Part shown: positions 15,966-22,199 of the stretch, one piece after another | How positions within the stretch are numbered: the stretch's first letter is position 1 | Layout of the letters: each line of letters begins with the position of its first letter | Assembly (NCBI RefSeq): GCF_006345805.1 | Contig: NW_021835376.1 | Span: 1-47,193, forward strand | Length of the DNA stretch: 47,193 nt | Reading direction: 5' to 3' | From: Octopus sinensis | Lineage: Eukaryota | The notes under the pieces: generated by a model | Seen by the model: only the letters and a program-made list of their open reading frames with translations | Told to the model about the DNA's origin: nothing | The model's database searches: none | Program-made: the position numbers and the translations under genes

Positions 15966-16929
15966 ATATGAATATTGGCTTCAAGCTGGGAAGTAAAATT
16001 TTGGTATAAACGAACTCGACAAATTCTGTTTTTAACGACCAGAACTAACAGAGTATAGCACTGTTGGTATCTAATTCGGTTCTGATGCTGAAAACAAATT
16101 CTAGAACAAAGTTACATGAACATTCTGCTCTCATTCGATATCGGCCAGAAAGAGGAAGTAAAGTATTTCTATTTCTAGCTGTATCGAATATTATTACTGA
16201 CTAGTCTATGTATTATAATATGCTGTAACGATTACTTTTTCAAATTCATTTAGTTAGGAAAATGTTTGTAGAAAATCGAATCATCGGCGCCTTTAATATT
16301 AAGGTTCTAAACTCAATATTCTGGTATTGTGTAGCATTTTCAAAACAATCAAATAATGATGCTTATATCGTATGGTTATGGTATATTTTAATATGAATTC
16401 TGTTGAGATACTACATAGCGTTATTTTTTAATAAAAAAGAGAAAAAAGACGGAGAAATCAATACCTTTTCATATCTTGCAGGACAAATAACATAGAAATA
16501 ATAAAAAATGTGGTCGATATAACACTGTGACAAGTGTGTAGTACCTGCTGGTATAAGTGAATATATGTCAGACCGAAACAACGGCAACAATGTTTAAGGT
16601 CGGTATGTCTGCACGCTAGTATGTATGTGTATATCTATCTACACACACCCCCACTTATATTATATACATATAATAACTAAGATTCAGTTAGAATAGGCAC
16701 TTAGAGGCACAAAGATAGTTCAGAATAGTCCGCCCGGCTTGCAGTCGGGTGAGTAAAAGCAAATAAGTAACAAGGGTGTCCAGGATAGCAGTTTCTTTCA
16801 AATTTTGCTGGTATTGATCGATGAAATAGTGTCGCTAGATAATGGCGTAATTCTTTGATACCTGGACATAACTTGTTATTTATTTACTTTCTATCTATCT
16901 ATCTTTCTACATGTATATATATATATATA

Positions 16930-17135
16930 GTTAATCCAAACATGAAACAAAAAGAGGAAACACAACAACGCGAGGACGTGGAACAAGTATAATATTATTG
17001 GACGCTCAGGAAAGAAGGAAAGAAGGAGGGTTTAACGTTTCGAGCAGAGCTCTTCGTCAGAAACATAGGAAAAGAAAAGATCGAAAGAAGGGAAGACGGA
17101 AGAAAAAAATCTCCAACGGTACACACGCGGTCATA
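16930..17135 (-). mobile_element. Short hammerhead-bearing cassette inserted in (TA)n (Penelope pseudo-LTR-like fragment)
   Basis: Unique ~200-bp purine-skewed block between TA tracts that contains the hammerhead motif. Its start AGTTAATCCAAA also occurs in the cassette at ~45602. Confidence 0.55.
17030..17064 (-). ncRNA. Minimal type I hammerhead ribozyme motif (Penelope-like element type)
   Basis: Minus strand GUUU-CUGACGA-A-GAGC-UCU-GCUC-GAAA-CG-U-U-AAAC: stem I GUUU/AAAC, intact CUGANGA and GAAA boxes, stem II GAGC/GCUC, palindromic ACGU in place of stem III. Confidence 0.75.
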
Positions 17136-17152
17136 CACACATATGTATCTGC

Positions 17153-20430: not shown

Positions 20431-20709
20431 ACGTATGTATGTATACACAAAGACACACGTATATACATGTATGAACACACGCACACATATCTATATATAT
20501 TGTATAAAATACGAATGATGGAATATACGAGAATTTATAATTAATCAAGACAATAGTTTAGACATTTCTAGCAACGATACCTCACGGGTGGGAACTTCAA
20601 GAACTCGTTCAAGAGTATCTGGCGGTGCACACGTATTTCATCAGGTGATAAAAAGGTACAACTCGTGAAAATAACAGTTCCGCAATGAAATTACCTTACG
20701 TTGACAGTA

Positions 20710-21082
20710 CACATTAAGTTGACAGTATACAACTATTCTATGGTACAACTACTGCTTATATCTTATATTTAGGAATGTAATATTTCTATTTTTGTAATCA
20801 ATGGATTTATTTCACTAGAATTCTTATATGTTTACATGGCCTGGACAAGAATCTTCTACTTGCAGGTCATGCTGCTCCAGACTGATGACGAGCAAGGCTC
20901 AGAAACTAGTTTCTGAATGCAGGCTTAGCTTGGTAGGGGTGCTTGTCTCCTCCTTTTAACATAAATACACAGGAAATGTGTCAAGGCCGACAAGAAGCGT
21001 TGATGCTTCCTAGGGGTAAATAGCAGCGGTGTGATTCCCTTCATGGGACTGTCACATTAAGTTGACGGTATAGAACTACTCT
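20710..21082 (+). mobile_element. 343-nt terminally redundant unit carrying a hammerhead-like motif (retrozyme / Penelope pLTR-like)
   Basis: 30-bp direct repeat CACATTAAGTTGAC(A/G)GTATA(C/G)AACTA(T/C)TCT at 20710-20739 and 21053-21082, with a hammerhead-like core in the middle. Confidence 0.55.
20878..20915 (+). ncRNA. Minimal type I hammerhead ribozyme-like motif
   Basis: CAGA-CUGAUGA-C-GAGC-AAG-GCUC-A-GAAA-CUAG-U-U-UCUG: stem I CAGA/UCUG, stem II GAGC/GCUC, palindromic ACUAGU at stem III. C.A mismatch at the base of stem II. Confidence 0.65.
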
Positions 21083-21195
<113 letters not shown>

Positions 21196-22199
21196 CTGTT
21201 ATGCAGATGATACAAAAGTTTCACAGGAAATACAGAACCCTGAGGACACTAGACACCTGCAATGTGAGCTGGACGAAATATACAAGTGGGCTGAAAAGAA
21301 TAGAATGCAGTTCAATGCTGGAAAGTTTCAAGCTTTATACTATCAGCATGCAAAACTGAATGCAATACCCAATGAATACACTGGACCCGGAGGGATTGCA
21401 ATCCCAGAGGCACAATCAGTGCGTGACCTGGGTTTCACATGAGTGATGACGCGACCCTTCATGTACATGTTGCTAAACTGACAATGAAATGTAGACGGCT
21501 GGCTGGATGGATTCTTAGAACCTTTAGAACAAGAGAACAAGAAACCATGATGGTCCTCTGGAAGACACTTGTCCTAAGCCACTTTGACTATTGCTCTCAG
21601 CTATGGTCACCATCCAGTGTCAAGTTGATCACAGAACTTGAGGCGATCCAACGAAGCTACACAAAGAAGATAGCCTCTATGCAGAATGTAAGCTACTGGG
21701 AAAGACTCAAGAGATTAAAATTATATTCCCTGGAGCGTAGGCGGGAAAGATATGCCATAATATACATCTGGAAGATCCTGGAGGGAAGTGTCCTGAACTT
21801 TGGCAACGAGAGTTACGCAAATGCCAGAACTGGGCGCCACTGCATGGTGCCTAGGACTCCAAACTTGCCATCAAGATGTAGGACAAGATTCTGTGATAGC
21901 CTGGGCTTCCGAGGCCCACAGCTCTTCAATATCCTCCCGAAGAACCTGAGAGACCTGCATGGGGTGGATACAGATGTCTTTAAAATGAAGCTGGATCTCT
22001 TCCTGTCAGGTGTCCCAGATGAACCAACTTCACGGCAGGAGGGACAGATGAGGGCAGCTGCATCGAACTCTCTCATGCACCAAATAGCAGTCGCTAGAAA
22101 GCCTCCATGAAGTGAAACCAAGTAGCAACACCAAATGGCGGTGCCCCAGCATGGCCACAGCTCATAAGCTGAAACTAGAATCAATCAATGAATCAATCA

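What the first reader, a model, noticed from the sequence alone, without database searches (positions are those of the whole stretch)
20710..21082. 343-nt terminally redundant, hammerhead-containing unit resembling a retrozyme (circular RNA) monomer
Seen: 30-bp direct repeats 343 bp apart, a central CUGAUGA/GAAA hammerhead-like fold, and no ORF. Known: metazoan non-LTR retrozymes are ~170-400 nt hammerhead-containing repeats that form circular RNAs and integrate as permuted or tandem copies. Inference: reverse transcription slightly more than once around a circular template would give exactly this monomer-plus-overlap structure. A long TSD or a partial tandem pLTR are alternatives.
Basis: partly seen in the sequence, partly recalled or inferred. 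Interest (0 to 1): 0.75.

Follow-up and report, generated by a model that had tools for sequence, protein, structure and literature searches.

The report
Penelope-copied hammerhead retrozyme repeat
This is one worn copy of a 350-base non-coding repeat, present at hundreds of places in an animal genome, that carries a predicted self-cutting RNA motif and is likely pasted by Penelope-type jumping-gene enzymes; it is a known kind of element, a circular RNA stage is possible but not shown, and a second jumping gene repeatedly sits just in front of the motif in other copies.

Summary
The 30-bp direct repeat (27/30, 343 apart) and the hammerhead-like core are real. The unit is one copy of a dispersed family with a period of about 350 nt, and the 30-mer is internal to the unit, so it is not a TSD. 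Of 167 arms at 109 loci, 151 end at one of two fixed 3' sites about 54 nt apart. 5' ends are scattered, and 37 of 43 head-to-head pairs join one arm from each site. Targets are AT-rich. This is the Penelope-like-element (PLE) tail, tandem and inversion signature without an ORF: a non-LTR retrozyme, or non-autonomous PLE passenger. Stem I covaries across sister subfamilies; the window copy has GUU for the family's GUC. Copies read through the cleavage site (56 of 59), so the template was uncleaved multimer or circle; these cannot be told apart here. The 'monomer plus 30' length is one draw from a truncation continuum. No autonomous partner was found. Side finding: ORF1-only Tx1-like elements sit 31-32 nt before the hammerhead in this and related families. 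The scan has noted both features in other genomes.

The parts
20696..20709 (+). 5' junction: extra copy of unit positions about 5-18, forming an 18-nt local duplication; true 5' edge of the insertion
   Evidence: TRF period 18 at 20696-20731; run X19 contig across 20536-20770
20710..21052 (+). One unit (343 nt here, about 350 in the family) of the non-coding hammerhead repeat; 29 of 338 aligned positions differ from the family majority (family median 5.2%)
20770..20789 (+). Hairpin that precedes family 3'-end site B (not used as an end by this copy)
   Evidence: 65 of 167 arms end at unit positions 65-100, mode 86; hairpin read from the sequence
20853..20858 (+). Position equivalent to the 3' junction of ORF1-only Tx1-like insertions in other copies; empty here
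   Evidence: coordinates mapped by hand
20877..20916 (+). Predicted type I hammerhead: stem I 20877-20881/20912-20916, core 20882-20888 and 20902-20905, 3-bp stem II with C.A at its base, palindromic minimal stem III; cut site mutated to GUU; predicted cut 20911/20912
21053..21084 (+). Start of the next unit, ending at family 3'-end site A just after a small hairpin (the 'terminal redundancy')
   Evidence: 86 of 167 arms end at unit positions 20-40, mode 32
21085..21195 (+). (CT)n(AT)n tract at the 3' junction; likely an AT-tract target with later expansion; no TSD visible at this locus

Best explanation
The stretch is one 5'-truncated, decayed insertion of a dispersed, non-coding repeat family of about 350 nt with a predicted type I hammerhead, likely mobilised in trans by a Penelope-like element (PLE) reverse transcriptase/GIY-YIG endonuclease. 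Inferred mechanism: the PLE protein nicks AT-rich or (TA)n DNA and starts cDNA synthesis inside the RNA at one of two hairpin-marked sites (A, about unit position 32; B, about 86). It copies backwards through the hammerhead and stops at random. When both target strands are extended, one from A and one from B, a head-to-head pair with a one-sided tail of about 54 nt results. The window copy began at A and ran one unit plus about 30 nt, which gives the direct repeat. The RNA template had to span the cut site; I favour uncleaved tandem transcripts slightly over circles. Shown: family anatomy, end positions, TSDs, covariation. Inferred: the enzyme, priming, cleavage, the form of the RNA.
For: 2448 first-look candidates, 40 scored, long hits 83-89% identical; one exact 35-mer occurs 189 times, control 0. 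3' ends: A 86, B 65, other 16 of 167 arms. Inverted pairs: AB 37, AA 3, BB 3 (binomial p 8e-7 against 0.5), plus 8 pairs with an 'other' end. The two arms overlap in sequence, so this is not L1-type twin priming. 5' ends are scattered with no shared upstream body. 20 nt beyond the ends are 79% AT against 63% background; (TA)n follows 50 of 151 ends against 50 of 1600. TSDs of 7 nt or more in 15 of 59 solo arms, shuffled mean 1.4, maximum 6; contigs join across the L003 insertion with 7 shared letters. 56 of 59 arms that reach the cut site cross it; 3 stop within 3 nt against 2.6 expected. Stem I: 92% of cells paired, 3 of 5 pairs with two-sided changes in 33 sequences. Stem III palindromic in 72 of 75 distinct cores although its length varies. 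Sister subfamilies 71-85% identical keep the same two ends. The genome holds intact RT+GIY-YIG ORFs of 775-781 aa. [quoted passage not shown]
Against: No autonomous partner found: 35 distinct GIY-YIG loci of 147 matches share no sequence with the unit. No Rfam hammerhead match. Stem II is short, and its base pair is standard in only 27 of 75 cores. The two-sided changes come from few lineages, so they are few independent events. The tail (about 54 nt) is longer than the 30-40 bp described. 33 of 59 solo arms show no TSD, nor does the window copy. Expression and cleavage are untested.
Confidence: 0.8

Rival explanations
1. Same PLE enzyme, but the template is a covalently closed circle of about 350 nt made by (dimeric) hammerhead cleavage and ligation, copied round and round.
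For: Copies cross the cut site without a pause and 5 of 149 arms cross it twice. Arm lengths show no step at one unit. Tandem units of one insertion differ at 37 of 186 non-CpG polymorphic comparisons against 41% between loci, and share rare variants about 5 times more often. The hammerhead is kept, with compensation, through many subfamilies. No array longer than 2.6 units was seen that could act as a linear donor. Axolotl retrozymes with similar weak stems give circles (PMC7229834 section 15).
Against: Within-insertion discordance (20%; 14% without L014) is above the 6.3% background at monomorphic sites, and the L014 dimer joins two subfamilies (14 of 21 sites differ), which one monomer circle cannot give. 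The stopping rate rises with length (0.006 to 0.017 per nt; small numbers). In vitro a PLE uses uncleaved RNA, and 8 of 9 predicted Xenopus dimers did not cleave.
Confidence: 0.35
2. The copies are only the 3' run-off ends (pLTR tandems) of an autonomous PLE whose ORF-bearing copies I did not sample.
For: Median arm is only 201 nt, so ORF-reaching copies would be rare. Autonomous PLEs of this genome carry short tandem repeats in their 3' regions. Only 35 loci of 147 GIY-YIG matches (5029 candidates) were compared.
Against: Every arm longer than one unit continues into the same unit, up to 2.6 units. No 5' or 3' flank is shared at a fixed unit position. PLE ORF fragments near units are separate insertions with their own ends.
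Confidence: 0.12
3. The 30-bp repeat is a long target-site duplication around a single 313-nt insert.
For: Only the local picture: two near-identical 30-mers flank the stretch.
Against: The 30-mer is part of the unit at loci genome-wide and is followed by more unit sequence in 88 of 167 arms. The TSDs that were found are 7-12 nt and locus-specific.
Confidence: 0.01

Closest known systems
Animal non-LTR retrozymes (Cervera and de la Pena 2020, PMC7229834; seen: passages and sections 15 and 17)
   Same: 150-450-bp non-coding repeat with a type I hammerhead, no LTR, tandem copies, weak palindromic stem III and a mismatch at the base of stem II as in the axolotl motifs; PLEs proposed as the mobiliser.
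   Different: Here copies are mostly sub-monomeric dispersed fragments, the longest 2.6 units; circular RNA and cleavage are not shown. The two fixed start sites and A/B inverted pairs are not in the passages I read.
Retrozymes as non-autonomous PLE derivatives (Li, Clavereau, Pollet 2026, bioRxiv 10.64898/2026.07.22.740005; seen: parts 1-3 of 5; supplements not seen)
   Same: Same conclusion: non-LTR retrozymes depend on PLEs; most families have few units.
   Different: Their evidence is co-occurrence and pLTR homology in vertebrates; here it is insertion anatomy, and no homologous autonomous pLTR was found.
EN+ Penelope-like elements, Neptune/Poseidon types (PMC8557442 passages; PMC11167929 parts 1-2 of 4)
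   Same: 5' truncation, partial tandems, inverted 5' copy, one-sided tail from two internal start sites, AT/(TA)n targets.
   Different: No ORF; tail about 54 nt; whole element about 350 nt.
Target-biased Tx1 LINEs that insert into other transposons (Tx1/Tx1D, Tx1-Mar; PMC4494074 passages) and ORF1-only HAL1 elements (PMC5753468 passages), for the side finding
   Same: Fixed-position insertion into another mobile element; ORF1-only derivative sharing the 3' end of autonomous LINEs.
   Different: The target is the stretch just 5' of a hammerhead in several retrozyme families; not found in print, but noted by this scan in another genome (e1-8669911).

Membership tests
Non-LTR retrozyme | Short (150-450 bp) unit occurring in tandem | tested here: met
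   Period about 350; 17 of 113 pattern-picked arms exceed one unit, longest 921 nt; long arrays not seen
Non-LTR retrozyme | Type I hammerhead in the unit | tested here: met
   Core conserved, stem I covaries, GUC in 73 of 75 cores; no Rfam match; window copy is GUU
Non-LTR retrozyme | No protein coding, no LTR | tested here: met
   ORFs of 43 and 39 aa only; the repeat is a partial tandem
Non-LTR retrozyme | At least two consecutive hammerhead units ('active' by Li et al.) | tested here: inconclusive
   Not met by the window copy (one core); met by 5 of 149 family arms
Non-LTR retrozyme | Self-cleavage in vitro | not testable with these tools
   Needs a transcription and cleavage assay
Non-LTR retrozyme | Accumulates as circular RNA | not testable with these tools
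   Only assembled contigs of runs guessed to be RNA were on offer
Autonomous Penelope-like element | RT plus GIY-YIG ORF | tested here: not met
   No ORF in the unit and none attached in 109 loci
PLE-mobilised insertion | Fixed 3' ends with one-sided tail, 5' truncation, inverted 5' copy | tested here: met
   151 of 167 arms at two sites; AB in 37 of 43 pairs
PLE-mobilised insertion | AT-rich or (TA)n target | tested here: met
   79% against 63% AT; (TA)n 50 of 151 against 50 of 1600
PLE-mobilised insertion | Sequence shared with the pLTR of an autonomous partner | tested here: inconclusive
   None in 35 distinct loci of 147 GIY-YIG matches
Tx1-clade target-specific LINE derivative (side finding) | Fixed 3' junction in a multicopy target with TSD-like duplication | tested here: met
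   38 of 59 loci with a hammerhead core 15-45 nt after AATAAA, 28 at 31-32 nt; control 12 of 660; both junctions read
Tx1-clade target-specific LINE derivative (side finding) | RT phylogeny placing the partner in the Tx1 clade | not tested
   Only Pfam RVT_1 plus zf-RVT, a shared 3' end and ORF1 homology in 5 of 30 loci; the Tx1 label is by resemblance

The most novel reading that the evidence does not exclude
A 350-nt circular RNA replicon has persisted through a series of subfamilies by being copied from two internal start sites by a PLE dimer, and is itself parasitised: ORF1-only Tx1-like elements insert just before its hammerhead, behind a putative promoter, using the host repeat for transcription and RNA processing. 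This would be a three-tier system of PLE, retrozyme and ribozyme-targeting LINE.
Probability: 0.2. Interest if true: 0.72.

Novelty: new member of a known kind. Interest (0 to 1): 0.4.

Why it matters
The element is a known kind, so the locus itself is ordinary. The family adds direct insertion-anatomy evidence for a link that the papers I read argue from co-occurrence and homology: retrozymes are written by PLE enzymes. It offers a minimal 350-nt substrate with two mapped start sites for testing circle against multimer templates and the origin of one-sided tails. The LINE that lands at a fixed distance before hammerheads of several families is a target type that my searches did not find in print.

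Tried and rejected
TSD reading: rejected. Linear cleaved monomer as template: rejected, no excess of 5' ends at the cut site (3 of 59, expected 2.6). Apparent 5'-end peaks near unit positions 162 and 280 as junctions to an ORF body: flanks are unrelated. L1-type twin priming: the arms overlap. PLE ORF next to a unit at L167/L191 as the parent: it has its own 3' end and its own minimal hammerhead. Subfamily switch points at the cut site: only L014 is informative and the intervals are too wide. Rfam: no hammerhead hit. Expression: no RNA holder listed; contigs of runs guessed to be RNA hold the family unevenly and cannot show level, strand or circles. Empty site of the window locus: not found. 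ORF1 of the interrupting element: no homolog among 438 candidates, only weak zinc-knuckle matches; atlas look-up unavailable. Autonomous LINE sitting in this unit: 0 of 30 zf-RVT loci. Sequence look-ups in earlier findings: nothing.

Full report
Observation. The repeat pair 20710-20739 / 21053-21082 matches at 27 of 30 bases, 343 apart. A hammerhead-like core lies at 20877-20916 with the cut predicted at 20911/20912. ORFs are trivial. An 18-nt duplication at 20696-20731, also read in a contig of run X19, extends the insertion 5'. Upstream lies another interspersed repeat (1340 candidates); downstream a (CT)n(AT)n tract and a LINE RT fragment. No TSD is visible at this locus.

Family. The own genome (2.72 Gb) gave 2448 candidates, 40 scored. 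One exact 35-mer occurs 189 times, control 0; a looser core pattern occurs 834 times, control 6. I mapped 109 loci: 29 (L004 dropped as overlapping L003) and 80 from the first 100 of the 189 matches (12 already held, 5 in the same locus as another, 3 not fetched). Unit positions below are counted on the 351-nt L002 unit. Of 167 arms, 86 end at positions 20-40 (site A, mode 32), 65 at 65-100 (site B, mode 86) and 16 elsewhere. The script put the window arm among the 16 because its alignment overran into the CT tract; by eye it ends at A. In 88 arms the 30-mer is followed by more unit sequence, so it is not a TSD. 5' ends are scattered and share no flank. Of 51 head-to-head pairs, 37 are A+B, 3 A+A, 3 B+B and 8 involve another end (p 8e-7 for 37 of 43). 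The two arms overlap in sequence and meet with small overlaps or gaps, so they are two separate cDNAs. Flanks are AT-rich (79% against 63%; (TA)n 50 of 151 against 50 of 1600). TSDs of 7 nt or more occur in 15 of 59 solo arms against a shuffled mean of 1.4.

What that anatomy means. Partial tandems, an inverted 5' copy, a tail often at one end only and (TA)n bias are described PLE traits (PMC8557442, passages). A purified PLE starts reverse transcription at two internal sites that bound the tail, nicks AT-rich DNA on both strands, is predicted to be a dimer, and mainly uses uncleaved RNA (PMC11167929, parts 1-2 of 4). The genome has intact RT+GIY-YIG ORFs; I call them Neptune-type from a CxxC knuckle before the GIY-YIG and their (TA)n ends, with no tree. 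None of 35 distinct such loci (of 147 matches) shares sequence with the unit, so the partner is unidentified.

Hammerhead. The core is conserved in the family: C at the cut site in 95 of 97 observations. Across 33 sequences from this family and sister subfamilies, stem I is 92% paired with two-sided changes at 3 of 5 pairs, and slid controls fall to 20-49%. The sequences are related and were picked for an intact core, so this reflects few events. In 75 distinct cores the three inner stem II pairs hold in 63-71, the base pair in only 27, and stem III is palindromic in 72 despite length changes. That resembles axolotl retrozyme motifs that cleave well only as dimers (PMC7229834 section 15). Rfam has no match. 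The window copy has GUU and a stem I mismatch and differs from the majority at 29 of 338 positions; it is probably impaired (inference).

Circle or multimer. In the pattern-picked set, 59 of 113 arms reach the cut site; 56 cross and 3 stop there against 2.6 expected; 17 exceed one unit. A cleaved linear monomer is therefore not the template. Tandem units within an insertion differ at 37 of 186 polymorphic comparisons, inverted arms at 36 of 264, and units of different loci at 41%; background is 6.3-6.5%. They come from related templates but not always identical ones; L014 joins two subfamilies. The stopping rate rises mildly with length. No usable RNA reads were on offer. I put about 0.35 on circles as the main template.

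Side finding. Six of the fetched copies (L032, L065, L087, L152, L159, L167; possibly also L151) are interrupted just 5' of the core by a same-strand element of about 1.2-1.9 kb with a weak zinc-knuckle ORF and an AATAAA end. Searching with two such 3' ends gave 60 loci (one dropped, cut by a contig end; the two query loci and three neighbouring pairs are included). In 38 of 59 a hammerhead core follows 15-45 nt after AATAAA, in 28 at 31-32 nt; control 12 of 660. By eye about 12 more are tandem copies behind a target remnant. Targets include this family, its sisters and other hammerhead families. The 3' junction is near positions 151-156 and the 5' junction at 163-178. A set picked by ORF1 protein is broader: only 4 of 30 end at this lineage, and I saw no sign of an ORF2 within the 1.5 kb held downstream. 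RT+zf-RVT LINEs share the 3' end, and 5 of 30 show ORF1 homology in the next tandem copy, but 0 of 30 sit in this unit. This resembles Tx1 elements that target other transposons (PMC4494074, passages) and ORF1-only HAL1 (PMC5753468, passages). Searches for hammerhead+target site+Tx1 and retrozyme+Tx1 returned 0 papers; subscription papers and Repbase reports are not covered. The scan noted such targeting in another genome (e1-8669911); I saw that note. The window copy has no such insertion.

Comparison and verdict. The unit works like a PLE passenger and fits the non-LTR retrozyme definition on the sequence features tested; cleavage and circular RNA are untested. The retrozyme-PLE link is in print (PMC7229834 section 17; bioRxiv 10.64898/2026.07.22.740005 parts 1-3 of 5; its supplements were not seen and could list related families). 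Earlier notes of this scan describe similar families in other genomes. New member of a known kind; interest 0.40.

Noticed in passing
L032:2714-4408; L065, L087, L152, L159, L167; L201-L260: ORF1-only, zinc-knuckle, Tx1-like elements inserted at a fixed spot 31-32 nt (from AATAAA) before hammerhead cores of several families, often in tandem; their 5' ends carry remnants of earlier targets. A TATA-like stretch lies about 30 nt upstream of the site (by eye, untested).
   Followed up: partly
window 16890-17140 (- strand), core at about 17060: A second, minimal PLE-type hammerhead in a different interspersed repeat (9 other fetched loci match); its core resembles the 3' motif of the PLE at L191/L193.
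   Followed up: partly
L151-L170, L187-L190, L233-L257: Older sister subfamilies (71-85% identical to the L002 unit) with the same two 3' ends and compensated stems; further unrelated families share the same core and stem III (L171-L186).
   Followed up: partly
3' ends of L001, L016, L027, L031, L038, L040, L052, L063, L071, L092, L093: (CT)n then (AT)n directly after site A; 10 ends scored CT against 1 AG, and L031 has CT outward on both arms. The CT run may be seeded by the element's end rather than being the target.
   Followed up: no
L014:1501-2216: Tandem dimer whose units belong to two subfamilies (14 of 21 diagnostic sites differ): template switch, mixed donor or mixed circle.
   Followed up: partly
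L131-L141: Young Neptune-type PLE families with intact 775-781-aa ORFs, 96-98% identical among copies, ending in (TA)n.
   Followed up: partly
L291-L320: RT+zf-RVT LINEs, many in tandem arrays of about 5.3 kb, with varied targets; L311 is followed by a sequence that I recall as the 5' end of U1 snRNA (recalled, not tested).
   Followed up: no
window 20487-20695 and 21196-22107: An abundant interspersed repeat cut off by the insertion on the left; a high-copy LINE RT fragment that begins at its YADD motif on the right.
   Followed up: no
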